64,000 nt of DNA from the sequence record NC_106721.1, one strand, 5' to 3'. The stretch comes from Escherichia phage EC148. Position numbers and translations under genes: made by a program. The notes below the pieces were generated by a model, which was given only the letters and a program-made list of their open reading frames with translations, was not told where the DNA came from and searched no databases. Below are positions 1-22,707 of the stretch, one piece after another; position 1 is the first letter of the stretch, and each line of letters starts with the position of its first letter.

Positions 1-19
1 ACAATTTCAACTTTAATTA

Positions 20-754
20 TTACGCAACTTTTAATTTCTCGATATATTGTTGCGGGCTGCAACTATATTCTGCGCGTTCTTCCTCGGTCATACCTTCCCA
101 ACATAATTTCAAACGATCAGCTAGGAATTGATAATCATTATCATCATCGAGGGATTCATCAATAAAGGTTTCACCTATCAATGCCACGCCGATTGATAGA
201 ATATCGTTAACGGCTTGCGCGTCCAGCGTTTTAAATCCGTATGATGCCGCCGCTGATAGTACACCCTTATGATCGTCAATCATTGTAAAATCAGCGTTCG
301 GATATAACTGTTTAAATAATTCAAAATAATAAGATTTATATACTGCGTCTTTGCTGTGGTATATTTCGCTAACTTTATCAGCTTCAAAATATTTGTGTAG
401 TGTATCACGGGAAAACACGCGGATATTACTATTACCACGACCGCGCAGACCTTGTTTACGCAAATAATAATAGTCCGACTTGCTCATTAGTCGAGCGGTA
501 CAAATAATGTTTAAAGTATTTGCGTCATTCATGCACTGGCGCATGTATTCAACTAATGGTAATAAAGTATCCTGCATTATTAAATGATGTTTGCAGGCTT
601 CATTTTTATACTTATTTAAATCTAAATTGCCCTCACTATCAAAGCAAGGCGCTACACGATGGAAAGAATTAACGATAGTGCCGTCTAAATCCCAAATCAT
701 GACGCGGGAAATATGCGGGAAGCTGCGGGAAAGATTCATGATAGCTTTATTCAT
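20..754 (-). CDS. dmp: 5'-deoxyribonucleotidase, HAD-family phosphatase (T5 dmp-like)
   Basis: 244 aa ORF with HAD motif I (WDLDGTIV) near the N-terminus; first gene of pre-early block. Confidence 0.65.
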   Translation of the reverse strand: MNKAIMNLSRSFPHISRVMIWDLDGTIVNSFHRVAPCFDSEGNLDLNKYKNEACKHHLIMQDTLLPLVEYMRQCMNDANTLNIICTARLMSKSDYYYLRKQGLRGRGNSNIRVFSRDTLHKYFEADKVSEIYHSKDAVYKSYYFELFKQLYPNADFTMIDDHKGVLSAAASYGFKTLDAQAVNDILSIGVALIGETFIDESLDDDNDYQFLADRLKLCWEGMTEEERAEYSCSPQQYIEKLKVA

Positions 755-833
755 TTGTTACGTTCTCCATTTAAGGGATTAGATTAATTCAGCATTACCC
801 GCTATTTATAAGCGGGTAATAATAAATTAACTA

Positions 834-1226
834 TTAAAGACCATAAGCCAACGCATCAGCGATAAAACTAACATCCTCACCGGATACGCTGGAACGAATA
901 CCCGCACAAGTATATACTTTCGCACTCGTTAGCTGATCATCAAGGCAAGCGGGGCAAGGCGCGACAACTGCAAAGGCTAGACCAGATTTTACCGCGTCAA
1001 TAATGATTGTTTCTTGTTTCATCGTGTCAACATAAACGCCTTTTGCTTTAATATGGCTTGTTAGTTTGCCTTGCATATATGCAAATGTTGTAACCTGCAT
1101 CGCATCATTGAAATCTAACAATTCATCAATAACGTGCCCCGCCTCGACGTGATAACGTTCACCATTAGAATAAACCAGAACAATGGAAGACTGAGCGCGA
1201 TCGAATGGAATATTTTGCTTTTTCAT
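834..1226 (-). CDS. hypothetical protein with HxE ... PCxxC zinc-binding signature
   Basis: 130 aa ORF; HVEAGH and APCPAC motifs resemble a deaminase-type zinc site but spacing (about 70 aa) is atypical. Confidence 0.4.
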   Translation of the reverse strand: MKKQNIPFDRAQSSIVLVYSNGERYHVEAGHVIDELLDFNDAMQVTTFAYMQGKLTSHIKAKGVYVDTMKQETIIIDAVKSGLAFAVVAPCPACLDDQLTSAKVYTCAGIRSSVSGEDVSFIADALAYGL

Positions 1227-1264
1227 ATTTATAAAACCCCAATTAGTTTAATAATGGATTTAAA

Positions 1265-1522
1265 TTATTTGATAATAATCTGCATCTGGTACGGCGTTAA
1301 TTCACCGTTTACGGGTAGATTATTATCACTTAGCCACTCATAAAAAGCGCTATCGTCATCAAAAGGAACAACATCATTATCACGGTAATCTACGGAAATA
1401 ACGCCATCAGTATTAGTTTTAGCGGCTAGGATAGGCCCGAAGCTGTAAACTTTATCAGATTCCATTTCATCCGGTGAAATGAATACTTTTTCGTCCAGTG
1501 TTTTGGGTAATGTAACTTTCAT
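1265..1522 (-). CDS. hypothetical protein
   Basis: 85 aa ORF co-directional with dmp/A1. Confidence 0.4.
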   Translation of the reverse strand: MKVTLPKTLDEKVFISPDEMESDKVYSFGPILAAKTNTDGVISVDYRDNDVVPFDDDSAFYEWLSDNNLPVNGELTPYQMQIIIK

Positions 1523-1577
1523 TTTTGTGACTCCTGAAATAGCGGCTATATTTCAAGCCGCTAGGGAAATAATTTAA

Positions 1578-3242
1578 TTACGCAAAGAATTTACCGTTTT
1601 TAAAGTCAATCAAAGTGCGCTGACCGTTTGCATAGGTAATTAAATGCGTCTGCGTCCAGCTTGACGCGCCAACGTTGTAACCCATATCCAGACTACCAGC
1701 TACGCCAGCGGTGTATACGCCGCCGTAAATGCTGGCGGTATGCGTATGCCCCGTGTTTAACTTGCCCAATTTCTTAAATTGTTTCGGGTTGCCACGGCTG
1801 CCGTTAATGCCGTTGTGACCGTGTACGCCGCATTCAATACCTGCAATCTTGAAAGATTGGTCAGTGGTTAGGAAAATGGCGTTAAACTCACAACCTGCAA
1901 CCTTGCGCAACGCATAATCTAGCACGTTGAAAGTATCGTCATGCTCACCGATTGCCGCGTAAATTGCAGCATTTAGGCGGTGATATAGTTCGGCGTTGGC
2001 GGGATCGTCTTTAATGTTAGCATTACGATCATCAAGCCAGCGGGATAGCGCCAAATCGTGATTCGATTCTACGATGATTGTTTGACTAAAATCACGTTCC
2101 ATTGATTCCAGCACGCGCCCCGTATCGATAAGATCATCCAGAACTTTATCACGTCCGGCGGCATACTGTTTCGCTAGGAATACACCGGATGCACGGTTAT
2201 GATGATTGCGCGATGTAAAATCATGCACGTCATGAATAAGCTGATATTTTGGTTTAAGAATATCAAGCAAACTATTCTCGCCAGCCCATGACGCAACGGC
2301 ACAATCATCATCTAATTTTTCGGCGTGAATATCGCCATACTGCAAGCCTAAAACATGCCCCGATGTTTCATAGCATCCGGCAGGAGTAGCGCAAACGTTC
2401 AGATCATAAAACACCCCGCTTTCGTCCATCGTTTCAAGCTGGCGTACAAAAAATTCCCCGTCGTCGTCGAACTCAACAATAAGCGCACCGAAGTTATGCA
2501 GCGCCTCGGCCTTTTGTCCTGCTTTCTGCTGAATGTAGTTTTTGAGCGTTGCCGTTCCGGTTGAATACATACGGCGCACTACTTCACCTTTTAAAGCTGG
2601 CACACTTTCAGCGGTGATTTTAGCGTGACCAATTGCCAGACCTTCAATATTTAAAGCCGTTGCAGTTTCTGCGAATCCAGAAAGCGGATAATCTGCGGTT
2701 GGCAAAACATTAATTTCAGCCATGAAAGCGAAACGGCGGTTATTTAAAAACACGTTTTTGCTGCAAATATATTTATCAAACGCGGAATCATATTTGATTC
2801 CATCCGCACCTTCCCCATTTTGAAAACCGTTTTTATTATAAATATACTTAGAAACGAGCAAATCAGCGCCGATAAATTTGGCATATTGTTCAAGTGAGGC
2901 CAAAAAGTTTTTATGCGGGAAAGTATTATTCTGAATCGATGTAATAATAAAGCGTTTGCCTTGTTTTACTTCCCACTGTTCAACCGTGCTAGAAACAACC
3001 CCCGCCGCTTCTGGGCGCTCGTCGTTTTTAATGGCTTTTGCTACTTTCGCCGCTTTCGGTTTCGCTGGTTTATTTGCTTCCAACCAATCACAAATGGCGG
3101 TGGAGTGTTTCGTTGTATCGTAGACCGCTTTTGATATATCGTCGCAGACTTCCAGTTTAGTAGCGCGCAGACGTTTACCATAGAAATTAAAGTCAGCGGC
3201 CATTTTCAGGATAACGGTTTGTTTTTCTGCGGAAATAATCAT
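1578..3242 (-). CDS. A1: A1-like pre-early protein, calcineurin-type metallophosphoesterase
   Basis: 554 aa ORF; phosphoesterase motifs GDIH, HDVHDF, ESNHD, GHNG/GHTH; position after dmp matches T5 pre-early order. Confidence 0.65.
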   Translation of the reverse strand: MIISAEKQTVILKMAADFNFYGKRLRATKLEVCDDISKAVYDTTKHSTAICDWLEANKPAKPKAAKVAKAIKNDERPEAAGVVSSTVEQWEVKQGKRFIITSIQNNTFPHKNFLASLEQYAKFIGADLLVSKYIYNKNGFQNGEGADGIKYDSAFDKYICSKNVFLNNRRFAFMAEINVLPTADYPLSGFAETATALNIEGLAIGHAKITAESVPALKGEVVRRMYSTGTATLKNYIQQKAGQKAEALHNFGALIVEFDDDGEFFVRQLETMDESGVFYDLNVCATPAGCYETSGHVLGLQYGDIHAEKLDDDCAVASWAGENSLLDILKPKYQLIHDVHDFTSRNHHNRASGVFLAKQYAAGRDKVLDDLIDTGRVLESMERDFSQTIIVESNHDLALSRWLDDRNANIKDDPANAELYHRLNAAIYAAIGEHDDTFNVLDYALRKVAGCEFNAIFLTTDQSFKIAGIECGVHGHNGINGSRGNPKQFKKLGKLNTGHTHTASIYGGVYTAGVAGSLDMGYNVGASSWTQTHLITYANGQRTLIDFKNGKFFA

Positions 3243-3581
3243 GATAATAAAACTCCATTAAAGGGATTAGATTAATAACGGCAATATTGCCAAATATAAC
3301 GCCTCGAATAATAGGCGTTATAATTTGCAACATTAATTTAAAGGCATAAGGCTAGAACTAACACCACAAGCAACGGCGGCAATAAAACAAATAATACGAA
3401 TCTAAATCATTTTGAAAATAAGCGAACAATAACGAGGCCGCCATAATAAACAAGCCTAGAATTAATGATTCAGTAGGATAAAAGATCATTTTAAAAACTC
3501 CTGATTTAAGGGAAGAAAATAACTATCGCTAAACAGTTATATTATTGCCCCCTCACTAAAAAAGGGGGCAAGGTATAACTA

Positions 3582-3989
3582 TTATTCGCCTGCGGCTTGT
3601 TTTACTTCATCGGCAACGCCTAACAATTGCGCTACTGCGTCCAGCGTTTCAAGTTTTGCACTTTCAAGGCTTGCCAGATCATCGGCATCTTTGATAATGC
3701 CGGAATCGATAGCGTGTTTTGCAATAACGCGTACATAATGAGCTTTGCGGATTGAACTACCGCCGCCAACTTTGCGAGGCTTATCGCTTTTTTGATATGC
3801 TTTTGCGCTGGTCAATTTTGACCGAACGGATACGGGAGAAGCCGCGCCCACTGCTTTTGCAATCTCTTTTAAACCGTCGCTATTTGCGAAATCTAAACCG
3901 TTTTCATTAATTAACTGTTGATACATGGAAACAGCTTTCTGAGTGTTTTCTTCATTCCATGCGAATTTTGCGATTTTAGCGTTAGTCAT
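3582..3989 (-). CDS. A2: A2-like pre-early protein
   Basis: 135 aa ORF downstream of A1 with the same conserved upstream leader motif as dmp and A1; size and position fit T5 A2. Confidence 0.45.
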   Translation of the reverse strand: MTNAKIAKFAWNEENTQKAVSMYQQLINENGLDFANSDGLKEIAKAVGAASPVSVRSKLTSAKAYQKSDKPRKVGGGSSIRKAHYVRVIAKHAIDSGIIKDADDLASLESAKLETLDAVAQLLGVADEVKQAAGE

Positions 3990-4085
3990 GATGTAACTCC
4001 TATTAGTTTAATTTAAGGGATTAGATTAACTTAATGTTAATCGTTATATCCCCCTGAAATAAGGGGATATAAAGTTAACACTAAT

Positions 4086-4337
4086 TTACAATACAGCTTC
4101 CCATTTTTCGTTGCGTTGAACAACCTTTACAACATCGCCGGATTTAACGCGAACGCTAAAAACGGGCTTGCCGTTGTTACTACGTTCATTTTCAGCGTAT
4201 ACCGCGTCGATTGTATCGAACGGCATAAGCGCCGCACCTTTAATACGTTCGGCCTTTCCGGTTAATTCATCCGTTTTAGTAACGAAAGGAATGAAGACGG
4301 ATTGACCAACTTTCGGCGCGGTAATAACGTTTTGCAT
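4086..4337 (-). CDS. hypothetical protein
   Basis: 83 aa ORF, co-directional pre-early block. Confidence 0.4.
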   Translation of the reverse strand: MQNVITAPKVGQSVFIPFVTKTDELTGKAERIKGAALMPFDTIDAVYAENERSNNGKPVFSVRVKSGDVVKVVQRNEKWEAVL

Positions 4338-5218
4338 AATATAAACTCCTAGTTATTTGGGGATTGTTCCGCATTACCTGCTAGAAAGTAACAGCAGGTA
4401 ATAAGTAACAATCCGCTCGCCAATATAATCAATTTTAAAGAACTCCACGTAGGCCGCTATATCCCGTTAGGGGGCGGGATGCATTATGGTAAGCACCGAC
4501 CGTCAAATTTTATCAAGTTATCGCTCTTATCGAACTGGGTACATCTTAAAACCTATCGGCTAGGTTGTCAAACAATTTTTTGCAATTTTTTATGATTTTC
4601 TTTTAGGTCAATCATAATATTTCGCCAGATCATTTCCAGACCTTGCTGGCGACCTTTCTTGTACTGCGTGAATCTATATCTTACTGATCTTTGAGCTACT
4701 GTCAACAAATTTTTTGTTTTGCTATCTAGTGCCTTAATAGGCTTGCCAGTGATCAAAAGCGTTTGTTTCATATCGTCGATTCCTTATAATGAATAAGTTT
4801 ACCGCCGATAGGCTTTAAGATGTACCCAATTTTTAAAGAGCGTGGCGGTAAACTTCCCGCCGTGTAGTTCGTCATTGCCGCCCTACGAGATAAATAATAG
4901 GGGATTCCCGAAAATGGCGCAACCTTATTTTTGTAAAGAAATGTAAAGGTAAAACTCACCGGACACCGTGCGGCGACGGCCTAAAATTAAAAGAAACGGG
5001 CGCGCGAATACCACAAAATAAAGCAAATAGGCAAGTAATTTTTTCATTTATATTTGCTTTGCCCTACTTGACAAAATCTAAAAAGCTCGTGGTAATGATA
5101 AACGGCTTATCCCCTTATGATGGGATGGCTAAAAACTTTATTGCGTTCTGGAGCGTTTTAGGCGCATTCTAGCCTTGTTGATAACTTATCCCCAAAAGCA
5201 AAAATGAAATTTTCCTAG

Positions 5219-5251
5219 TTATCCACTTGACTTTTATTTTCCAGTGGATAA
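5219..5251. promoter_or_regulatory. inverted pair of DnaA-box-like 9-mers (TTATCCACT / AGTGGATAA)
   Basis: 8/9 matches to TTATCCACA on both strands, 15 bp apart, in an ORF-free AT-rich region. Confidence 0.45.
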
Positions 5252-5505
5252 CTACTTATTTTATGAAATAAATTAATTGACTTTTATTTGTTAGTATGCA
5301 TCGGAAAGATAGCAGACTAATAATTGCTAGAATGATAATCATGCTGGTGGATTGTAACGACCTGAATTATTAGCAGACTATTAATCACGGAAAAATCTCA
5401 TTAGCCAACTAACTATTTCATGATATATAATATACATATAAATTAATGAGAAATAATAACTATAAGAAATCATCTAGCTAAGTGAGAACCACTATCATTT
5501 AAGTT

Positions 5506-5514
5506 ATACACAAA
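5506..5514 (+). promoter_or_regulatory. DnaA box (TTATCCACA)
   Basis: perfect 9-mer consensus read directly. Confidence 0.5.
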
Positions 5515-5576
5515 GTTATCCACAGCACTTTTTGACTTGACACGATAGGCGGCGATATAAGGACTTTTACACAGAC

Positions 5577-5585
5577 TTATCCACA
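5577..5585 (+). promoter_or_regulatory. DnaA box (TTATCCACA)
   Basis: perfect 9-mer consensus read directly. Confidence 0.5.
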
Positions 5586-5877
5586 GGTTATCCTACTGTA
5601 TATTTATACAGGGTAAAAAGGTAGTGTTAACAACTGCAATCAATTTTAAGCGGCTTAAATCGCATTCTAACGAGCTAAACGCTGTAAGGTAATATTAAAG
5701 TAAAGCCTCAATGCGTCGGCCTGGTGGCTTCGCCGTGGTTTGCTCTTTATTGCACCGCTGCGCGGTTATCATAAAAATAGGCGCTAGGCAAGGAAAATAA
5801 AAAGGTAAAATAATATTTGCCTATGCTAGAAATTTACCTTTATCATTCACTCACCGATTAACGAGGAGGCCGAACAA

Positions 5878-6888
5878 ATGAGGCTGTATAAACCTGATAA
5901 TGCCACCGTATTAAAGGGTGCATTGCGCAACCTGCTAGACGGTAGCAAGTCAACCAGCATTAAACATTTTATTAACAAGATTGAAACTATTCATCAAAAC
6001 TTTTTTGATGATTATGACGCTTATGATATGGATAGTTTTCTACCCTTATATAGACAAGGGGCAACGCTAGTTTTATATAATCGGGATTGCCATATCTTTA
6101 CAGGCAGGGGAGCGGGGCCGGATACCGATTTTATTGTTGCGCAGGGTAATAATATTGTTGCGTATCATAGCAATTCAGGCCGTCAATCATTTAATATAAA
6201 TAGTTTTGAGCTTATTGGACTTGATCTGATAAATGGACTTTCTAGCATTGAGGGATTTTTAGATGTTATCTGGAAGTATTTACCCGCTGGATGGCATAAG
6301 CCGGATAACGACGGATCTCAATATACCGGTATAATGGCTTTTGATGGCGACGGTAATTTTTTGTTACCACGGGAGCTATACCCATATATTTATGATGGGG
6401 ATATAGAAAGCGCTGGTTTTTCTTTCTGGAAAGATGAAGATCAGATTATTGACAGCGTAGAAAACCATGCTGTAAATTCTAACACTCAAAGCGTTAACAC
6501 TCAAACTACTGAAAACAAAGGAAAAAACACCATGACCAAGATTGCTAACATCGTTGCCGCCAATAAATCCGCTGTTGTAAATGCTGCAAAACTGGAGGCG
6601 GGTAAAATTGCATTAACTCAAATTACGAAAGTAGCGGCTAAAAAAGCACCATTCATGATCAAAGGTTATATCGATACACCTATTGGTCGTGTAGTGATCG
6701 CTAACCTGCTGAGTGTAGCGGTTGACCAGTACGCACCGACTAACCAAAAGGCGAAAGCGGTAGCGGGGGCGGCTATGGAAGCGGCAATGCTGGAAATGGT
6801 GCAAAGTTTTAACATCGCTGAAATGATTGATGAAATGGTGAAAGGTATTGATATTTCTACTTTTACCACTAACACCGAAAGCGAGTAA
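5878..6888 (+). CDS. hypothetical protein
   Basis: 336 aa ORF preceded by GAGGAGG RBS; Ala/Lys-rich C-terminal half; hairpin terminator follows. Confidence 0.5.
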   Translation: MRLYKPDNATVLKGALRNLLDGSKSTSIKHFINKIETIHQNFFDDYDAYDMDSFLPLYRQGATLVLYNRDCHIFTGRGAGPDTDFIVAQGNNIVAYHSNSGRQSFNINSFELIGLDLINGLSSIEGFLDVIWKYLPAGWHKPDNDGSQYTGIMAFDGDGNFLLPRELYPYIYDGDIESAGFSFWKDEDQIIDSVENHAVNSNTQSVNTQTTENKGKNTMTKIANIVAANKSAVVNAAKLEAGKIALTQITKVAAKKAPFMIKGYIDTPIGRVVIANLLSVAVDQYAPTNQKAKAVAGAAMEAAMLEMVQSFNIAEMIDEMVKGIDISTFTTNTESE

Positions 6889-6896
6889 TAATATTT

Positions 6897-6925
6897 AGCG
6901 GGGATTATTTCCCCGCTTTACTACT
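6897..6925 (+). terminator. hairpin terminator candidate
   Basis: stem AGCGGGGA/TCCCCGCT followed by T-rich tract directly after the 336 aa ORF. Confidence 0.45.
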
Positions 6926-6953
6926 CCCTTGTTAATTAATAGGAGGCTAATAA

Positions 6954-7448
6954 ATGGCTGAGGAAAAATACGGCTTCTCGCTAGGGGAAGTGAGCACGGC
7001 TAAACATGATATGATCATTTTAGTCGATTGTCATACTGGCTATTGCGGGGAAGGGAATACCGAGGAATACTTTGTTCCTGCTGGTACGGATCTGGACGCT
7101 TTCGCTCATGAAATGGCTATTGATAATGCTTCTCGTTTTGGTAGCGATGGCTATGAAGACGAAGAAACTGGCGAATGGTATGAAAATGAAAACGTATATG
7201 CTGGCCTTTATCATTATCAATTAAGTAAATCCGGCACATATGTAAACGGCGGCGATCCTATTAATTCCGTCATGAAATTAATTATTAAATATGGTGGCGT
7301 CGAAATAATTGATAATAAAGCGGTAATATACGCAAATCGATTAAAACAGCTTGTTTATATTCCTGATAATACCCGATGGGAGGAATACGCTGTTTTACAT
7401 GATGAATTAAAACGATGTTTCAATGTTGAATCCTTACAGGTAGTTTAA
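6954..7448 (+). CDS. hypothetical acidic protein
   Basis: 164 aa ORF with AGGAGG RBS. Confidence 0.5.
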   Translation: MAEEKYGFSLGEVSTAKHDMIILVDCHTGYCGEGNTEEYFVPAGTDLDAFAHEMAIDNASRFGSDGYEDEETGEWYENENVYAGLYHYQLSKSGTYVNGGDPINSVMKLIIKYGGVEIIDNKAVIYANRLKQLVYIPDNTRWEEYAVLHDELKRCFNVESLQVV

Positions 7449-7552
7449 TGTAAAGTTTTGTAAAGGTCGCCTTTTATGGTGGCCTTTTTTGTTATAATGC
7501 TTTTACACCAAAACGGTGGATTAAAAATTTCCCAAAAATTTGGAGGCTTAAA

Positions 7553-7783
7553 ATGGTTGCTTACTCTTCTGCTACTCATCTGTTCACCGCTCAAGGCTGG
7601 GTATCTAACCGCGCCATTATTCATGAAATGGTGCAGGAGTTCGGCATTGCTAAAACTTATAACACCATCCAAGAACTATACAACGCCGATAAAATCGATC
7701 AGCAAACGGCGGGCTTTTTGCTGGACACGCTGAAAGCGGAACACTGTACTAAAAAACAAGCTGCAAAAATTGTTTTAATGTAA
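7553..7783 (+). CDS. hypothetical protein
   Basis: 76 aa ORF with GGAGG RBS. Confidence 0.4.
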   Translation: MVAYSSATHLFTAQGWVSNRAIIHEMVQEFGIAKTYNTIQELYNADKIDQQTAGFLLDTLKAEHCTKKQAAKIVLM

Positions 7784-7830
7784 TTAGTAACGGGGGATAT
7801 TATATCCCCCACTGACTAGGAGAATAAAAA

Positions 7831-7980
7831 ATGGTTATTTTTCGAGCTATTCTGGCGGGTATCTTGGGCGCTATTTTATCGTTGTTTGCAATAGCTTTTG
7901 GCGTTCACGCCGTTATTATTGGCGCTGGCATTGCTGCGTTTTCTTATCTGCTGGGCTGCATGACTAGTAAAGGAGAATAA
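7831..7980 (+). CDS. small hydrophobic membrane peptide (49 aa)
   Basis: own translation: MVIFRAILAGILGAILSLFAIAFGVHAVIIGAGIAAFSYLLGCMTSKGE; RBS AGGAGAA upstream; below the 60 aa cutoff of the ORF track. Confidence 0.4.
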   Translation: MVIFRAILAGILGAILSLFAIAFGVHAVIIGAGIAAFSYLLGCMTSKGE

Positions 7981-7982
7981 AA

Positions 7983-8195
7983 ATGATCCGCAACGTTTCC
8001 CTTGCACGTTCGAAAGGCTTTAAGCTGGTGGATGTTAACACGTTCGAGCGGGAAGATTGTAAAATCGAATATGTAGCACGTAACAAAAATGCCTTTCGTG
8101 TTACCGAGAAAAAATTTGATAAGCGCGGCAACGTGATAGCTGAAACAGTTAAACACTTTGCCACCTTTTACGCTGCGTTTCGTGGGGTACTATGA
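7983..8195 (+). CDS. hypothetical protein
   Basis: 70 aa ORF, start 3 nt after previous stop. Confidence 0.4.
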   Translation: MIRNVSLARSKGFKLVDVNTFEREDCKIEYVARNKNAFRVTEKKFDKRGNVIAETVKHFATFYAAFRGVL

Positions 8196-8335
8196 AAAGC
8201 GTTATTGTTATTATCCTTGCAATGGCTGGCGGTTTTATCGCCACCTTATTTAAAAATGACCCCATTTCATTGGGGATCTTTATGCTTTTATCTGGCTATC
8301 TAATCGGGAGGCTAACAAATGATTCAGCAAATTAA
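8192..8335 (+). CDS. small hydrophobic membrane peptide (47 aa)
   Basis: own translation MKSVIVIILAMAGGFIATLFKND...; ATGA start/stop overlap with upstream gene. Confidence 0.4.
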   Translation: MKSVIVIILAMAGGFIATLFKNDPISLGIFMLLSGYLIGRLTNDSAN

Positions 8336-8441
8336 AACGGCTTTTCGTTTTTGGGGCGTCCTGCCTTCAATTGGTTTTATTCTGATAATTATTAGTCAGC
8401 TAATGATCATCGGCGGAACTATTTGGGAGCTATGCAAATGA
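8319..8441 (+). CDS. small hydrophobic membrane peptide (40 aa)
   Basis: own translation MIQQIKTAFRFWGVLPSIGFILIIISQLMIIGGTIWELCK; overlaps the previous peptide gene in another frame. Confidence 0.35.
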   Translation: MIQQIKTAFRFWGVLPSIGFILIIISQLMIIGGTIWELCK

Positions 8442-8782
8442 TAATTTATGAAGGCAATCGTTTTGTTGCTAATTGCCGCCCAGCATTATTAGCAAACTAT
8501 TTAAATCAGCTTTCCCCAGCTTATAAGGGCGTTATTAATATTTATGAGGGCAAGGCACATTATAAAATTAATGCGGTCGTTGCCCGTGAACTAGCGTTTC
8601 AATTTTTGACCTTTGCATCTTGTGACGTTCAGGTTATGGGTGAAGCATTAATTGCAGAAAATGAAGATGATTTTATTAATATTTTCCGCAAGGTATGTAC
8701 CGAGCGCCTGATAATGAAAGGCGCATATATTCAATCCACTGCGGATAGTATTGAAACAGCGTTTCGAAAGGTGGCGCAATGA
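8438..8782 (+). CDS. hypothetical protein
   Basis: ORF track 8423..8782; start moved to ATG at 8438 (ATGA overlap with upstream stop). Confidence 0.45.
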   Translation: MIIYEGNRFVANCRPALLANYLNQLSPAYKGVINIYEGKAHYKINAVVARELAFQFLTFASCDVQVMGEALIAENEDDFINIFRKVCTERLIMKGAYIQSTADSIETAFRKVAQ

Positions 8783-8883
8783 GATTATATATTTTCGTTG
8801 GTAATAGTAAGGCCGCTAATGATTCCGCTGGTGGCGATAACATTCGCCACTATTGGCAAAAATATATTTACTAGGGAGTTATT

Positions 8884-9078
8884 ATGAGTAATAAAATAGT
8901 TGTAACCAAGATCAGTACAATGGTTGATGTTTTTTACGTGCCAGATACGCCGGAGAATCGGCAAGCGGTCGAGCGTGGCGAATATGATAAAGTGATTTAT
9001 GATCACGATGGTTATTATCAGTATTTGGTGGATTCCTACGGGGAGGAGGAAAAAATCACGCATCGACTACCAGACTAA
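8884..9078 (+). CDS. hypothetical protein
   Basis: 64 aa ORF with GGGAG RBS. Confidence 0.4.
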   Translation: MSNKIVVTKISTMVDVFYVPDTPENRQAVERGEYDKVIYDHDGYYQYLVDSYGEEEKITHRLPD

Positions 9079-9119
9079 TAATCACGGGGCGCAACTATCA
9101 GGGAGTGCCCCCAATTTTC

Positions 9120-9140
9120 AAATGAGAATGATTCTCATTT
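9120..9140. repeat. palindrome AAATGAGAATGATTCTCATTT
   Basis: near-perfect 21 bp inverted repeat; second copy at 9616-9635. Confidence 0.6.
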
Positions 9141-9435
9141 AACCGCGCCCGCGATGGTTAGCCTGCTAATGATTAGGGTGTTACGTGTCGCCTTGTGTGA
9201 TCGTTAGCTCGCTAACTAATTTCTAAGCCTCCTCCAATTTTACCCGTGTTTTAGTATCCCCAACAAAATTAAACGCGTTAGAATGCGTTTGAGAGCGTTT
9301 TAGCTGTATATTAGAATTATTCACTGCATAGGAATACTGTATATTTATACAGTAGGATAAGCTGTTGATAAGTCTGTTGATAACGCCTCAAAATGGCTAG
9401 GATTTTGTCAAGTCAAATCGTGCTGTTGATAAGTC

Positions 9436-9444
9436 TGTGGATAA
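9436..9444 (-). promoter_or_regulatory. DnaA box (TGTGGATAA, reverse orientation)
   Basis: perfect reverse complement of TTATCCACA next to two TGTTGATAA half-matches. Confidence 0.45.
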
Positions 9445-9615
9445 CTTAAATAATAGTGTTTCTCACTTCCATTCTTAAATACGAATCAGTATCATTCGCA
9501 TTTCACTATCTAACTAATAATCATTCCACTTTTTAAATGAGAATCGTTTCACTTCCTGAATAATTCTCATTTCCATTCTTAAATGCGAATTATTATCATT
9601 CACATTCCGCTTTTT

Positions 9616-9635
9616 AAATGAGAATGATTCTCATT
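9616..9635. repeat. palindrome AAATGAGAATGATTCTCATT (copy 2)
   Basis: same inverted repeat as 9120-9140, inside a block of tandem 30-50 bp repeats (9440-9650). Confidence 0.6.
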
Positions 9636-9677
9636 ATCATTCGTATTCAGGCAAGCAGGGCAATTGCCCTGCGCTTT

Positions 9678-10278
9678 TGTGCAAATCCGACATTTGCCCC
9701 CATGGATTACGCGTGGGCGTGTATGTGCGAATCCGACAATTTTTGGTAGTGTGCAAATCCGACCCGAAAAATTTTTATAATGTGCGGATCCGACAATGAA
9801 TTTTCCTAAAAACTCCAGCAATCCGATGCTGCGCATCAATCCTGTGGAATTAACTAGAATATGTGCAAATCCGACATGGGTTTATTTGTGCGAATCCGAC
9901 AAGATTTTTGTGACTTCGATTGGAGAGTGTGTGATTGTAAGAGTTTGGGGAGAAGTTGAGAGATCGAGAAAAATTTGAGGGAACTGCGAGAGGGGCGCAT
10001 GTTTGGTGCGTAGCACCTGATTTGCGGGGATTTTGGGGAAGAGTTGAGAAGATTTGGGTTAATTTGAGATTAGTGCAGATAAAGTAAAATCTTATTAGCT
10101 AAATGGGGCAAAATAGCTTGACAAGTGAAAGTTTCTGTGGCTCTAAAAACTCAGGCAATCATGGGCCTTCGGCCCGAAATAATGCTGCCATTTTCAAGAG
10201 ATTATATGTTCCTAAAAACTTAGGCAATTGTGCAAATCCGACCATAAATTTCTAGAAACACAATGTGCAAATCCGACA
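9678..10278 (+). repeat. dispersed direct repeats TGTGCRRATCCGACA, 8 copies
   Basis: copies read at about 9678, 9724, 9751, 9781, 9862, 9887, 10229 and 10264; irregular spacing, no ORF. Confidence 0.7.
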
Positions 10279-10320
10279 GTAATTTCTGGAAATGTGTTTT
10301 CAAAAAATGTCTCCTAGAAA

Positions 10321-10400
10321 TAACCGCCCTCCCCATAACCGCCCTGTATTAAACCGCCTAGTATATGTTCCTAGAAACTTAGGAGAACCGCCCTAGAAAG
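10321..10400 (+). repeat. short direct repeats AACCGCCCT (x4) interleaved with CTAGAAA motifs
   Basis: read directly; same ORF-free repeat region. Confidence 0.5.
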
Positions 10401-10814
10401 AGTGAGTATTTCGTGAGAACTCTGGAGTTTCTAGGAAAGTGTTGTGCCATCCTAGCAGATGAGCGGCAACAGGTGTATCATCTTGAATGTAAATTATGTG
10501 GTCAAAAGTTTTACTTTTATTTTAAATATAAGATCCCCCAGGGTTCTCATATAGAGCTTTGCCCCCGCCAGAAGGTCTCGTGATGTTTCTAGCAATTTAT
10601 ATTAAATTACTTATTAACTTGTCCTGTCGCTCCGTATCCTCCGCTACAAGTTAGTAATTTTAAATTACTGAACCACCACACCTTCTGTGTGGCAACTCTA
10701 AATGGTTAATTCTATTAACTCATAGAGTTATGATAACATACATTTAGCTATCTGTCAACGAGAGTTTGTATTTGAGTCTCGGTACAGGTATTGTGCACCG
10801 AGACATGCAGGATC

Positions 10815-11699
10815 TTACAGTAACTCTTGGTATGCTTTTTGGTACGCCTCAGTGTCAGTAGGTGTATCTTTTGCTAGTGCAATTAGTTCATCTGTTATCT
10901 GAATGTTCGTATTATAACGTGTGTGGAACTCGTTAGGAATTTCTAGGTATCTATTGATGAATGCTGCAGCAAGCGGTGTGACTAAACCAATCTCTAGAGA
11001 TAGCTTAACTTGTTTTTCGTAGATTAAATATTGAGAATCAGATGGGGTTGGTGGGGTTACATCAATTTTCTCGGGTTCTTTTTCTGGAAGCAATGGATTA
11101 TTATATAATGCTTCATCTGGAAGCACAGATTTACGCTCTTTAAATATATAAGTTTCTAGATCCGATGCTTTAGATCCTGAGTATACCGCAAAGATGCTAG
11201 CTTTACCCTGTGATGCCCTAACTGGTAAATAACTAGTAGGATAGCTTCTTAATGCATCATGGAATGGACTTCCTGAGTACTTGTATGTATCTCCATAGAG
11301 ATCATCAATATTCATTCGTTCATCTTCAAAGATGTGAAATGACTTAAATGGTGGAATGGTGAAGTATTCCATCTGTAACCCATAAACTAAGAAACGATGT
11401 GCATATGCACTGATTTTTAAGACTGTGAATGCTTTTTCACCTTCTTTATGGGCGTTGCCTTTTGAAGTAACTTGGTAACGTTTACAAAACATCTCTACTA
11501 GACGTTTCTCATTAATACTAAGGGTGGAGTACAGTCGTCCACTTAATCCTATAAGTGCATCGAACATAAATGCTAGTTTATCTTTTTCTTCCTGGGTTAG
11601 TTCAGGAAATGGAAGTACTTTAGCATCAGGAACACTATTATTTTCCTTAGGTTTTGTTTTACCAGCGTTTTGTCTTAGTTTATCTTTAAAGTTATACAT
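10815..11699 (-). CDS. hypothetical protein
   Basis: 294 aa ORF, first gene of the minus-strand early block. Confidence 0.5.
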   Translation of the reverse strand: MYNFKDKLRQNAGKTKPKENNSVPDAKVLPFPELTQEEKDKLAFMFDALIGLSGRLYSTLSINEKRLVEMFCKRYQVTSKGNAHKEGEKAFTVLKISAYAHRFLVYGLQMEYFTIPPFKSFHIFEDERMNIDDLYGDTYKYSGSPFHDALRSYPTSYLPVRASQGKASIFAVYSGSKASDLETYIFKERKSVLPDEALYNNPLLPEKEPEKIDVTPPTPSDSQYLIYEKQVKLSLEIGLVTPLAAAFINRYLEIPNEFHTRYNTNIQITDELIALAKDTPTDTEAYQKAYQELL

Positions 11700-11776: not shown

Positions 11777-12391
11777 TTAGCTACCTCTCTTATCTTCATT
11801 AATAGCAGCTCCCAACGCCTCCATAATAGCATCCTCTAAACTTCCATGTTTACCAGGATTATTAAAATGAATAGTACAAACAGAACTCCTAGAAACTCCA
11901 GCATCCGCAGGTGCTACGCTTCGCATATCAGATTCAAAAGCTTCTTGAGTATGTTTTAGCTGTACAGATGGGCCGTAATCTTCCACAAACTTATATGACT
12001 GCGTACTACTTACCACACCCCCACAAGGAATATTGTGCATATCCGACATTAATCTTTTATCGGAGTTATTCAGCATTGCGATTGGTCCGGACGGCCATGA
12101 ATCTCGAATAGTTACTGGAGCACTAGGACGGTTCACCTCAGTCTTCACGAGTTTATAACCAGCGTCTATTAGTGCATTAATCAGGTTATCAGCCGGGATG
12201 CGAGCCGTGCCAAAAATCTTACGAGCATCTTCGAGCTTACTCTCAAGATCTTTACAGGCTTTAAGGTCGGTGTGTGCAAATGTTAGCTTCATAGATTTGA
12301 ATTGTACAGTAGCAGTTAAATCTTTAAAGCTGTAATCCCATGTGTTCAGTTCATGGTCTGGTACTACTTGAATAGGCTGTTGTGTAAACAT
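11777..12391 (-). CDS. hypothetical protein
   Basis: 204 aa ORF. Confidence 0.5.
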   Translation of the reverse strand: MFTQQPIQVVPDHELNTWDYSFKDLTATVQFKSMKLTFAHTDLKACKDLESKLEDARKIFGTARIPADNLINALIDAGYKLVKTEVNRPSAPVTIRDSWPSGPIAMLNNSDKRLMSDMHNIPCGGVVSSTQSYKFVEDYGPSVQLKHTQEAFESDMRSVAPADAGVSRSSVCTIHFNNPGKHGSLEDAIMEALGAAINEDKRGS

Positions 12392-22107: not shown

Positions 22108-22707
22108 TTACTCTTCTTTATGCTCCTCTGATTGAGGTAACTGGGCTTTATTATACTGCTCAGATCGATATTTTGCCAAGATTTCAATACGCTTATGGAT
22201 TTCTTTGCTATCTAGATAGATATTTTTGTTGTCTTTTACCATCTCATCGATTTCGTCTATTGAGAAAAACGGATAGTAGACATCTAGCATCATATCTTCT
22301 ACGAACTTGTTGTAAGATTCATAGGCTTTCTTGATTTCTTGACCCTTCTCACAGAATCCGCCAGAGAACGTGTGTCCCATTAGTGTAGCATGTGGATGTA
22401 CTACCCACCCATGACAGGATAGGAAAATTGTGCAGTAAGCAGAAGCACTAGGACCAACCAGATGTCCTATAACTGTTCCACGGCAATTAGCAATTAAGTT
22501 AGATAACTGTGCAGCAGTATCAACATAACCACCAGGGCCATTAATCATCAGATTAATTTCGTCGTCCTCATTTGCTTGCATAAGTACCATTGATAAATCA
22601 CGGTATTCATCCGGCGGGCCTAATTCTTCATCAAAGAAAAAGGTATACTCATTAGATTGGCGAATGGAGTGAAACAGGTTAGTCTTTTCTTCTTTTTTAT
22701 TAGTCAT
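22108..22707 (-). CDS. ClpP-like serine peptidase (putative)
   Basis: 199 aa; GPGGYVD ... GPSASAY ... H pattern resembles S14/S49 peptidases. Confidence 0.4.
   Translation of the reverse strand: MTNKKEEKTNLFHSIRQSNEYTFFFDEELGPPDEYRDLSMVLMQANEDDEINLMINGPGGYVDTAAQLSNLIANCRGTVIGHLVGPSASAYCTIFLSCHGWVVHPHATLMGHTFSGGFCEKGQEIKKAYESYNKFVEDMMLDVYYPFFSIDEIDEMVKDNKNIYLDSKEIHKRIEILAKYRSEQYNKAQLPQSEEHKEE

What the first reader, a model, noticed from the sequence alone, without database searches (positions are those of the whole stretch)
9100..10620. ORF-free 1.5 kb repeat landscape at the pre-early/early boundary
The region holds eight copies of TGTGCRRATCCGACA, four of AACCGCCCT, about seven CTAGAAA motifs, two copies of a 21 bp palindrome (9120-9140, 9616-9635), tandem 30-50 bp repeats (9440-9650) and DnaA boxes (9436-9444 plus TGTTGATAA half-sites). 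Position and content fit the injection-stop or terminal-repeat boundary described for T5-type genomes, but the 15-mer family looks like a binding-site array for an unidentified sequence-specific protein.
Basis: partly seen in the sequence, partly recalled or inferred. Interest (0 to 1): 0.55.

Follow-up and report, generated by a model that had tools for sequence, protein, structure and literature searches.

The report
T5 injection-stop region and genome end
This gene-free 1.7 kb stretch is the already described "injection stop signal" repeat region at the right edge of the terminal repeat of a T5-type phage; the repeats are real and conserved as far as Vibrio phages, but what binds them is still unknown.

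Summary
The window is a T5-like phage (Tequintavirus), 99.9% identical to T5_ev212, and starts about 105 bp from the left genome end. The flagged region aligns collinearly at about 91% with T5 AY543070 9321-10436. That record annotates this stretch as "injection stop signal (iss)", the end of the left terminal repeat, and the 7.9% nick.

All belong to "Repeat Region 3", described by Heusterspreute 1987, Wang 2005 and Davison 2015/2020. The 15-mer is their "DRD" repeat. The finding is therefore already known.

Points I did not find in the papers I could read:
- The terminal-repeat boundary maps to 10143|10144, between DRD copy 6 and copy 7.
- The DRD core GTGCRAATYC, its single orientation and the module order are kept in Sugarlandvirus, Pectobacterium My1 and two Vibrio phages, while the spacers are unalignable. 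This points to a protein-binding array.
- A near-consensus LexA box precedes the DnaA-box pairs in all nine phages examined.
- One further conserved DRD copy lies inside a gene at 12034.

The mechanism is unresolved. I favour DRD as an array marking the genome end for terminase, with a direct role in injection stop or restart as a close rival.

The parts
9079..10814 (.). Gene-free junction between convergent pre-early (+) and early (-) genes. It corresponds to T5 'Repeat Region 3' / iss plus the start of the unique region.
   Evidence: No ORF over 79 aa. No CDS in T5_ev212 or T5 AY543070. About 91% collinear with T5 9321-10436 and 93% with 10529-11321.
9120..9140 (.). 21-bp palindrome AAATGAGAATGATTCTCATTT, copy 1. 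This segment has no counterpart at the same place in T5 itself.
   Evidence: Window 9071-9247 does not align to T5.
9335..9354 (.). Near-consensus LexA (SOS) box TACTGTATATTTATACAGTA. A second copy lies at 5594-5613 in the inverted partner repeat.
   Evidence: CTGT-N8-ACAG found at 9337 and 5596. By inspection it matches 19 of 20 positions of TACTGTATATATATACAGTA. Conserved upstream of the DnaA boxes in 9 phages.
9337..9467 (+). IRD'-spacer-IRC' inverted-repeat unit. Its partner, IRC-spacer-IRD, is at window 5480-5611.
   Evidence: blastn hits in reverse orientation to T5 6228-6098 and 9542-9411. Named in Davison 2020.
9363..9383 (+). DnaA-box pair 1: TGTTGATAA-GTC-TGTTGATAA.
9424..9444 (+). 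DnaA-box pair 2: TGTTGATAA-GTC-TGTGGATAA. The second box is the exact consensus TTATCCACA on the other strand.
9460..9650 (.). AT-rich (26-29% GC) degenerate direct repeats and palindromes, the literature's DRE1/DRE2, DRB and DRC. Includes palindrome copy 2 at 9616-9636. The estimated first-step-transfer shear point maps near 9624.
   Evidence: Shear point 9618 in AY587007 coordinates, converted through the 80-bp offset.
9655..9675 (-). Hairpin GCAGGGCAATTGCCCTGC followed by the nick consensus CCTGCGC|T. The site of the T5 7.9% major nick maps to 9674|9675.
   Evidence: T5 nick annotated at 9748/9749. Alignment, hairpin, shared nick context.
9678..9901 (+). DRD array, copies 1-6 (TGTGCRAATCCGACA). 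Starts at 9678, 9724, 9750, 9781, 9862 and 9887, inside the terminal repeat.
9850..10143 (+). G-rich, C-poor block (GC skew +0.44 to +0.64). It ends in the conserved terminus element TAAATGGGGCAAAATAGCTTGACA-N20.
   Evidence: This is the only piece that blastn still detects in Klebsiella Sugarlandvirus phages.
10143..10144 (.). Right boundary of the terminal repeat, which is the physical right end of the genome in the right-hand copy: ...CTGTGGCTC|TAAAAAC...
   Evidence: Same junction as the T5 LTR end at 10219, the PhageTerm-predicted repeat end in Sepoy, and EscoHU1. Seven IMG/VR genomes end 256-258 bp after the start of DRD6. The My1 and IW18 record ends fall 20-22 nt after the same TTGAC element.
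10229..10278 (+). DRD copies 7 and 8, just outside the terminal repeat. T5 has a ninth copy 137 bp further on, which this phage has lost.
10322..10394 (+). AACCGCCCT cluster: 10322, 10337 and 10386, plus AACCGCCTA at 10352.
   Evidence: Also present to the right of the terminus in IME260, My1, Sepoy and EscoHU1, but to its left in PM135.
10141..10436 (.). CCTA(A/G)AAACTYAGG family, which holds most CTAGAAA hits. Copies at 10141, 10210 and 10369 on +, 10422 on -, and 9804 on +.
10730..10758 (-). Sigma-70-like promoter (TTGACA-17-TG-TATCAT, 11 of 12) pointing left toward the terminus. No ORF follows it.
   Evidence: An equivalent TTGACA-17-TAGAAT is visible in IME260 (by inspection).
12034..12047 (+). 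Isolated DRD copy (TGTGCATATCCGAC) inside the - strand ORF 11777-12391. It is an exact DRD in T5 at 12153.
   Evidence: It sits in a conserved island within an otherwise divergent, indel-rich gene.

Best explanation
Identity (shown, about 0.95). This is the conserved non-coding control region at the right edge of the terminal repeat of a T5-like phage. The T5 literature calls it the injection stop signal (iss) or 'Repeat Region 3'.

Layout (shown). The modules sit in a fixed order:
- a LexA-like box followed by two DnaA-box pairs (9335-9444);
- AT-rich palindromic repeats (9460-9650), where the sheared first-step DNA ends;
- a hairpin with the 7.9% nick site (9655-9675);
- six same-orientation DRD 15-mers (9678-9901);
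- a G-rich block ending in a conserved terminus element;
- the terminal-repeat boundary at 10143|10144;
- two more DRDs and the AACCGCCCT cluster in unique DNA.

DRD as a binding array (inferred, about 0.8). The DRDs are iteron-like recognition sites for one conserved sequence-specific protein.

Role I commit to (inferred, about 0.4). The right half of the region, meaning the DRD arrays on both sides of the cut, the terminus element and AACCGCCCT, marks the genome end for the packaging/terminase machinery. The left end of T5 is injected first. By the usual last-in-first-out rule for tailed phages, the right end should therefore be packaged first. This would resemble pac sites, in which repeats flank the cleavage point. 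On this reading the left half (LexA-like box, DnaA boxes, AT-rich repeats), which is the last DNA inside the cell at the pause, is the part that acts in the injection stop.
For: Identity: 99.9% identity to T5_ev212. Collinear alignment to T5 AY543070, where the LTR (1-10219), iss (9140-10149) and the nick (9748/9) are annotated. Davison 2020 lists the same elements, including 'nine DRD repeats'.

Terminus: the same CTGTGGCTC|TAAAAAC junction ends the repeat in T5, Sepoy (PhageTerm-predicted) and EscoHU1. The right-hand repeat copies of seven genomes stop 256-258 bp after the start of DRD6. The My1 and IW18 record ends fall 20-22 nt after the same TTGAC element. This roughly 75-bp element is the only part of 9640-10300 that blastn still finds in Klebsiella phages.

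DRD as a selected site: the core GTGCRAATYC, the single orientation and the array-terminus-array layout recur in IME260 (5+6 copies), My1 (5+3), KIT04 and IW18 (6+2), with different spacers. Genome-wide in T5 the motif occurs only here, once at 12153 and as a pair at 78935/78950, always on the + strand.

Both ends: AACCGCC-like motifs lie 20-45 bp inside the left terminus of T5, Sepoy and IME260 as well.
Against: No binding or packaging experiment exists for any of these motifs. 2026 papers still call the mechanism poorly understood.

No DRD lies near the left terminus, so DRD cannot be the only terminus signal.

The conserved extra copies inside genes (12034 here; 78.9 kb in T5) are not expected for a pac site.

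Proteus phage PM135 keeps only one or two degenerate DRDs yet must still package.

Because first-step DNA is roughly the terminal repeat, an injection role and a terminus role co-localise by construction. Comparative position therefore cannot separate them.

Some records place the repeat end elsewhere: Kenya-K20 at DRD2 and one IMG/VR genome 50 bp after DRD6.
Confidence: 0.8

Rival explanations
1. The DRD array is itself the injection stop or restart element. Transfer pauses with the array at the cell envelope or in the tail. A host or virion factor, or later the pre-early DNA-binding protein A2 together with A1, recognises the polar 15-mers to hold and then resume transfer.
For: The estimated shear point of first-step DNA maps to about window 9624, some 50 bp left of the nick and DRD1. 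All copies point the same way relative to the direction of DNA entry. A1 and A2 homologues exist in every lineage that has the array. From shear point to repeat boundary is about 520 bp, or about 177 nm of B-DNA. From memory, that is close to a T5 tail length, so the array would fill the tail at the pause; I did not check this figure.
Against: If the shear estimate is right, the DRDs are still outside the cytoplasm at the pause and out of reach of cytoplasmic proteins. From my recollection of the T5 literature, not checked here, purified receptor triggers complete DNA ejection in vitro; that argues against a block built into the virion. Copies 7-8 lie beyond the repeat, and further copies sit at 12 kb and 79 kb. 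PM135 has A1 and A2 but almost no DRD array.
Confidence: 0.3
2. The stop is made by host proteins bound to the left half of the region. This is Davison's model: membrane-associated DnaA binds the paired DnaA boxes and holds the DNA until A1/A2 release it. I extend it here with LexA binding to the adjacent consensus SOS box. DRD would then be unrelated to the stop.
For: Two DnaA-box pairs and a near-perfect LexA box are conserved in the same order in nine phages from Escherichia, Salmonella, Klebsiella, Pectobacterium, Proteus and Vibrio hosts. The LexA-DnaA module is the piece of My1 that megablast still detects in Klebsiella and Serratia phages. Davison sets out the DnaA model.
Against: Proteins binding DNA inside the cell would be expected to favour entry, not block it. 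From memory, T5 plates on recA laboratory strains, so LexA cleavage cannot be the restart signal. A second LexA-DnaA module sits 3.7 kb upstream, in the divergent pre-early promoter region. That fits transcriptional control better than a stop. No binding data exist.
Confidence: 0.2
3. The region is an iteron-type replication origin, built from DnaA boxes, AT-rich repeats as the unwinding element, and same-orientation iterons (DRD) bound by a phage initiator.
For: The three classes of element occur in the order typical of iteron plasmid origins. T5 encodes a protein annotated 'putative replication origin binding protein'.
Against: DRD spacing is irregular (25-81 bp) rather than about 22 bp. There is no adjacent initiator gene; the neighbours have no recognisable function. 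Davison reports that T5 origins map near the centre of the genome, and that the replication genes are not expressed from first-step DNA. The array is split by the genome end.
Confidence: 0.07
4. The repeats are decaying duplications or hide a small gene or RNA, and have no site-specific function.
For: Some records annotate many short hypothetical proteins here. A conserved promoter-like site points into the region.
Against: The non-coding block 9300-10330 is more conserved than the flanking genes across 18 genomes. The motifs persist across genera while the spacers do not. No Rfam match at E<=1. No ORF over 79 aa.
Confidence: 0.03

Closest known systems
Bacteriophage T5 injection stop signal / 'Repeat Region 3' of the left terminal repeat (Heusterspreute et al. 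1987 Gene 52:155; Wang et al. 2005; Davison 2015; Davison 2020 bioRxiv 10.1101/866236)
   Same: Same locus, by collinear alignment at about 91% identity. Same elements: IRD'-spacer-IRC' with paired DnaA boxes, the 66-bp DRE repeats, palindromes, the DRD 15-mers, the 7.9% nick and the end of the terminal repeat.
   Different: This phage has 8 rather than 9 DRDs in the cluster. It carries an extra palindrome copy at 9120 in a segment not shared with T5. All four of its DnaA-type boxes in IRD'/IRC' are intact, whereas T5 has TGGGGATAA in one.
pac sites with repeats flanking the cleavage point (from memory: P1 pac with 4+3 hexamers; SPP1 pacL-pacC-pacR)
   Same: Short direct repeats lie on both sides of a defined cut that creates the genome end.
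   Different: T5 makes exact ends with a 10-kb terminal repeat rather than headful series. No terminase binding data exist. There is no DRD at the left terminus. This is a resemblance only.
T7 concatemer junction (from memory: terminal repeat flanked by short repeat arrays, with a promoter needed for processing)
   Same: A terminal-repeat boundary embedded in short repeat arrays, with a conserved promoter-like site pointing at it.
   Different: The repeat is 160 bp in T7 and 10.1 kb here. The host RNA polymerase is used, not a phage one. Nothing was tested.
Iteron-type plasmid origins (from memory: P1 oriR, pSC101, F oriS)
   Same: DnaA boxes, an AT-rich repeat block and same-orientation 15-bp repeats.
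   Different: Irregular spacing, no adjacent initiator gene, and published T5 origins lie elsewhere.

Membership tests
T5 iss / Repeat Region 3 | Collinear sequence homology with the stretch annotated iss in T5 (AY543070 9140-10149) | tested here: met
   Window 9247-10360 aligns to T5 9321-10436 at 90.6%. Annotation.
T5 iss / Repeat Region 3 | Untranslated, at the right end of the left terminal repeat, between pre-early and early genes | tested here: met
T5 iss / Repeat Region 3 | IRD'-spacer-IRC' with two DnaA-box pairs (3-bp gap within a pair) and an inverted partner about 3.5 kb upstream | tested here: met
   Pairs at 9363/9375 and 9424/9436, 61 bp apart start to start, as in T5. Inverted partner at 5480-5611.
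T5 iss / Repeat Region 3 | Two ~66-bp DRE repeats and a series of DRD repeats | tested here: met
   67-nt pair 9460-9526 / 9564-9630 at 81% identity. 8 DRDs here against 9 in T5.
T5 iss / Repeat Region 3 | DNA transfer actually pauses here | not testable with these tools
   Requires infection and shearing, or time-resolved sequencing.
Terminal-repeat boundary (physical genome end) | Same junction sequence as genomes whose ends were determined | tested here: met
   CTGTGGCTC|TAAAAAC in T5, Sepoy (PhageTerm-predicted) and EscoHU1.
Terminal-repeat boundary (physical genome end) | Sequence left of the boundary is duplicated at the other genome end of this phage | not testable with these tools
   The window covers only the first 64 kb. 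The duplication was shown for relatives.
Terminase recognition (pac/cos-type) site | Repeated motifs adjacent to or flanking the cut | tested here: met
   6 DRDs to the left and 2 to the right of 10143|10144. The same layout occurs in IME260, My1 and IW18.
Terminase recognition (pac/cos-type) site | Small terminase binds the repeats; the cut depends on them | not testable with these tools
   The gene next to the T5 large terminase (T5.156), taken here as the small-terminase candidate, has no Pfam match.
Iteron-type replication origin | Regularly spaced (~22 bp) iterons next to an initiator gene | tested here: not met
   Spacings are 46, 26, 31, 81, 25, 342 and 35 bp. Flanking ORFs have no known function.
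LexA (SOS) box | CTGT-N8-ACAG with an AT-rich centre, close to TACTGTATATATATACAGTA | tested here: met
   19 of 20 positions at 9335-9354 and at 5594-5613. Conserved in 9 phages. LexA binding itself was not tested.
DnaA box | TTATCCACA or the relaxed TTWTNCACA | tested here: met
   One exact consensus box and three one-mismatch boxes. Binding was not tested. The DRD reverse complement ATTTGCACA matches 8 of 9 positions of the relaxed consensus, but DRD conservation extends 6 bp beyond it, and the Vibrio variants match less well.

The most novel reading that the evidence does not exclude
The region holds two separable machines. The first is the genome-end recognition site of Demerecviridae: the DRD arrays, the TTGAC-N20 terminus element and AACCGCCCT, read by a conserved phage protein such as the small terminase. 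The second is a cluster of near-consensus operators for universal host proteins (LexA and DnaA), conserved from Escherichia to Vibrio phages. This cluster would be the real injection-stop or pre-early control element. Neither the LexA box nor a terminase role for DRD appears in the papers I could read.
Probability: 0.2. Interest if true: 0.7.

Novelty: already known. Interest (0 to 1): 0.3.

Why it matters
Two-step DNA injection by T5 has lacked a mechanism for more than 50 years. Papers from 2026 still call the stop signal and the restart 'poorly understood'. The region is known, so re-finding it is not news.

The comparative footprint does narrow a 1.2-kb 'Russian doll' of repeats to a few short, testable elements:
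- a 10-bp DRD core;
- a consensus LexA box;
- paired DnaA boxes;
- a roughly 50-bp terminus element;
- the AACCGCCCT motif.

It also raises the possibility that part of what has been called iss is really the packaging or terminus site. T5 genome engineering now exists (Ramirez-Chamorro et al. 2021, PMC8108384, seen in the listing), so each element can be mutated directly.

Tried and rejected
- Rfam scan of 8800-11000 at E<=1 gave no match.
- Tandem Repeats Finder reports only a 12-bp x 2.4 unit (the DnaA-box pair) and a 10-bp x 1.9 unit, not the claimed 30-50 bp tandem array.
- Pfam and PHROGs on the four flanking ORFs returned unknown function only. Pfam on A1, A2 and T5.156 (taken as the small-terminase candidate) found nothing.
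- A collection scan for three spaced AAATCCGA cores returned mostly unrelated contigs and was useless.
- DRD as part of the nick signal was rejected. Only the 7.9% nick has a DRD beside it; the nicks at 22336 and 39746 have none, and the 78.9 kb DRD pair lies about 360 bp from the nick at 78573.
- The DRD pair in T5 gene D13 encodes the peptide repeat VQILQ-VQIRQ, so it may be a coding coincidence.
- DRD as a DnaA box: 8 of 9 positions match, but conservation extends beyond the box and weakens in Vibrio phages.
- By eye, DRD is not a CRP, Fis, IHF or FNR site.
- LexA cleavage as the restart signal was rejected because, from memory, T5 grows on recA hosts.
- An apparent 80-bp disagreement on the T5 repeat end (10139 versus 10219) is only a coordinate offset between AY587007 and AY543070.
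- Davison 2015 (PMC4743489) is not held in the library and could not be read.
Full report
**What the window is.** Megablast of 9000-10800 finds 457 phage records. The best are T5_ev212, SUT_E1520 and SUT_E420 at 99.9% identity, all Tequintavirus. Alignment to T5 AY543070 shows that window base 1 corresponds to T5 base 105, so the window begins about 105 bp from the left genome end. The flagged region is collinear with T5: window 9247-10360 matches T5 9321-10436 at 90.6%, and 10408-11200 matches 10529-11321 at 93.3%. The T5 record annotates the left terminal repeat at 1-10219, "injection stop signal (iss)" at 9140-10149, and a major single-chain interruption at 9748/9749 on the minus strand.

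**Check of the observation.** The 14-mer TGTGCRRATCCGAC occurs eight times exactly, all on the + strand, against 0.03 expected. Two copies have C instead of A at position 15.
- AACCGCCCT occurs three times exactly, plus one AACCGCCTA.
- CTAGAAA occurs seven times between 10249 and 10592 on both strands, and is enriched window-wide at 33 against 14.
- The 19-bp palindrome core is exact at 9121 and 9617.
- The DnaA-type boxes form two pairs, 9363/9375 and 9424/9436; the window holds 8 matches against 1.75 expected.
- The "tandem 30-50 bp repeats" are degenerate interspersed repeats. The clearest is a 67-nt pair at 81% identity. Tandem Repeats Finder does not call them.
- No ORF exceeds 79 aa, and close relatives annotate no gene across 9079-10814.

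**It is already described.** Davison's 2020 preprint (10.1101/866236) names this "Repeat Region 3" (AY587007 9194-10409). It lists palC/palD, IRD'-spacer-IRC' with paired DnaA boxes, DRE1/DRE2 (66 bp), DRB, DRC, several palindromes, "nine DRD repeats" and DRA copies. It credits Heusterspreute et al. 1987 and Wang et al. 2005. It puts the first-step-transfer shear point at about 9618, in DRE2, and proposes that membrane-bound DnaA holds the DNA. AY587007 coordinates run 80 bp behind AY543070, so the two T5 sequences agree on the repeat end. Papers from 2023 and 2026 still describe the stop signal as a repeat-rich non-coding region with an unknown mechanism. The 15-mer is the DRD repeat. I found no function assigned to it.

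**Anatomy in window coordinates.**
- LexA-like box: 9335-9354.
- DnaA-box pairs: 9363-9383 and 9424-9444.
- AT-rich repeats and palindromes: 9460-9650, at 26-29% GC. The shear estimate converts to about 9624.
- Hairpin 9655-9672, overlapping the nick consensus CCTGCGC|T. The T5 7.9% nick maps to 9674|9675.
- DRD copies 1-6: 9678-9901.
- G-rich, C-poor block: 9850-10143, with GC skew up to +0.64.
- Terminal-repeat boundary: 10143|10144.
- DRD copies 7-8: 10229-10278.
- CCTAAAAACTYAGG copies and the AACCGCCCT cluster: up to 10394.
- Leftward sigma-70-like promoter: 10758-10730.
- First early gene ends at 10815.

**Placing the genome end.** The window lacks that end, so I used relatives whose records carry both copies. 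The junction ...CTGTGGCTC|TAAAAAC ends the repeat in T5, in Sepoy (where the record says it was predicted by PhageTerm) and in EscoHU1. The right-hand repeat copies of seven IMG/VR genomes stop 256-258 bp after the start of DRD6, which is the same place. In Pectobacterium phage My1 and Vibrio phage IW18 the record ends fall 20-22 nt after a TTGAC element in the equivalent position. Two records disagree: Kenya-K20 places the boundary at DRD2, and one genome stops 50 bp after DRD6. The approximately 75 bp just left of the boundary is the only part of 9640-10300 that blastn still detects in Klebsiella Sugarlandvirus phages.

**Comparative footprint.** Across 18 Tequintavirus and Epseptimavirus genomes the whole block 9300-10330 is more conserved than the flanking genes, as Davison noted. 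The more informative comparison is with distant genera, where the spacers no longer align.
- Klebsiella phage IME260 keeps, in order: LexA box, DnaA-box pair, 35-bp AT-rich repeats, CCTGCGC followed by five DRDs, a G-rich block, the terminus element, six more DRDs and two AACCGCCCT.
- My1 (subfamily Mccorquodalevirinae) has 5 DRDs, then the terminus, then 3 DRDs, with AACCGCCCT x2.
- Vibrio phages KIT04 and IW18, whose A1 protein is only about 31% identical, keep the order LexA box, DnaA boxes, CCTGCGC and then a DRD array. Their consensus is AGGTGCAAATYC. In IW18 one copy begins at the first base beyond the terminus.
- Proteus phage PM135 keeps the LexA box, DnaA boxes and CCTGCGC followed by ATGTGCGTAATCGAC. 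It has only one or two degenerate DRDs.

The invariant core is GTGCRAATYC, always in one orientation. This is the pattern expected for a recognition site read by a highly conserved factor.

**Where else DRD occurs.** In the complete T5 genome the motif, allowing two mismatches, occurs only at the following places, every time on the + strand:
- the nine clustered copies in each repeat context;
- position 12153;
- a tandem one-mismatch pair at 78935/78950.

The 12-kb copy (window 12034) is a conserved island inside an otherwise divergent, indel-rich gene. The 79-kb pair encodes VQILQ-VQIRQ within D13 and may be a coding coincidence.

**Mechanism.** What is shown is the identity of the locus, the module order, the boundary position and the motif-level conservation. 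The function is inferred.

I favour, at about 0.4, reading the right half as the genome-end recognition site. DRD arrays flank the cut. The terminus element is the most widely conserved DNA in the region. AACCGCC-type motifs also sit 20-45 bp inside the left terminus of T5, Sepoy and IME260. The right end should be the first DNA packaged, because the left end is the first injected; this follows from general knowledge of tailed phages.

Several points weigh against this reading:
- no DRD lies at the left terminus;
- conserved DRD copies sit inside genes;
- PM135 has almost no array;
- there are no binding data.

The close rival, at about 0.3, is that DRD acts in the pause or the restart. The array starts about 50 bp beyond the shear estimate and is polar with respect to DNA entry. 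However, it would then lie outside the cytoplasm at the pause. Position cannot decide between the two, because first-step DNA is roughly the terminal repeat.

A host-protein model for the left half (DnaA, per Davison, plus LexA) is plausible at about 0.2. An iteron-type origin is unlikely at about 0.07: spacing is irregular, there is no initiator gene, and published origins lie elsewhere.

**Verdict.** The open question is which proteins read the motifs, and that needs experiments.

Noticed in passing
window 9335-9354 and 5594-5613: Near-consensus LexA (SOS) boxes, TACTGTATATTTATACAGTA, each about 10 bp before a DnaA-box pair. Conserved in T5, Sepoy, EscoHU1, IME260, My1, Vibrio KIT04 and IW18, and Proteus PM135. 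Not mentioned in Davison 2020, and no held paper combines T5, LexA and SOS box.
   Followed up: partly
window 12034-12047 (+), inside the - strand ORF 11777-12391: An isolated DRD copy in the same orientation as the array. It is exact in T5 at 12153 and forms a conserved island in a gene that otherwise varies and carries indels.
   Followed up: partly
T5 AY543070 78935-78963 (beyond this window): Tandem pair of one-mismatch DRD motifs inside gene D13, encoding VQILQ-VQIRQ, on the + strand. Nearly invariant in 28 genomes.
   Followed up: partly
window 9668-9715; T5 9748, 22336, 39746, 78573: All annotated T5 major nick sites share more than GCGC. They have CCYGCGC| followed about 30 bp downstream by RTTAC, extending to RTTACGYGTGG-like sequence at three of the four sites. 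PM135 shows the same pair. Two T5 sites also share TCTCCWRGRAAC, which resembles the CTAGAAA-type repeats of this region.
   Followed up: partly
window 10730-10758 (-): Strong sigma-70-like promoter (TTGACA-17-TG-TATCAT) pointing left toward the DRDs and the terminus, with no ORF downstream. IME260 has TTGACA-17-TAGAAT at the equivalent place. Possibly a non-coding transcript, or transcription through the terminus.
   Followed up: no
window 9850-10143: G-rich, C-poor strand (GC skew up to +0.64) with GATTTTGGGG-type units running up to the genome's right end. The same feature occurs in IME260, My1, KIT04 and IW18. In the right-hand repeat copy, the nick at 9674 would leave the last roughly 470 nt of the minus strand as a separate fragment covering exactly DRD1-6 and this block.
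   Followed up: no
window 9620-9638: GAGAATGATTCTCATTATC matches the Fur-box consensus at 16 of 19 positions. Six of the window's 34 matches at 13/19 or better fall within 9100-9700. This may simply reflect the AT-rich palindromes.
   Followed up: partly
T5 1-60; Sepoy 1-60; IME260 1-60 (left genome ends, not in this window): AACCGCC-like motifs (TAACCGCCACCCCC, TTACCGCCCCC, AAAACGCCCCTCC) lie 20-45 bp inside the left terminus. They echo the AACCGCCCT cluster to the right of the right terminus. Sepoy also has the ATGAGAATGAGTCTCAT palindrome there.
   Followed up: partly
window 10160-10190: ATCATGGGCCTTCGGCCCGAAATAATGCTGC is invariant in 18 genomes. It contains a GGGCC-TTCG-GGCCC hairpin just beyond the terminus, with no T-run on either strand.
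   Followed up: no
window 8827-8834 (+): A Chi sequence, GCTGGTGG, lies 1.3 kb inside the right terminus. Its orientation is the one that would be read by RecBCD entering from the right end. It is a single site, seen; about two are expected by chance in 64 kb.
   Followed up: no
T5 D5 (67310-68077) and A2 (3727-4134): The DNA-binding protein D5 shows three or four tandem helix-turn-helix-like modules in Pfam. By eye, the N-terminal part of A2 resembles one such module. Either protein could read direct repeats.
   Followed up: no
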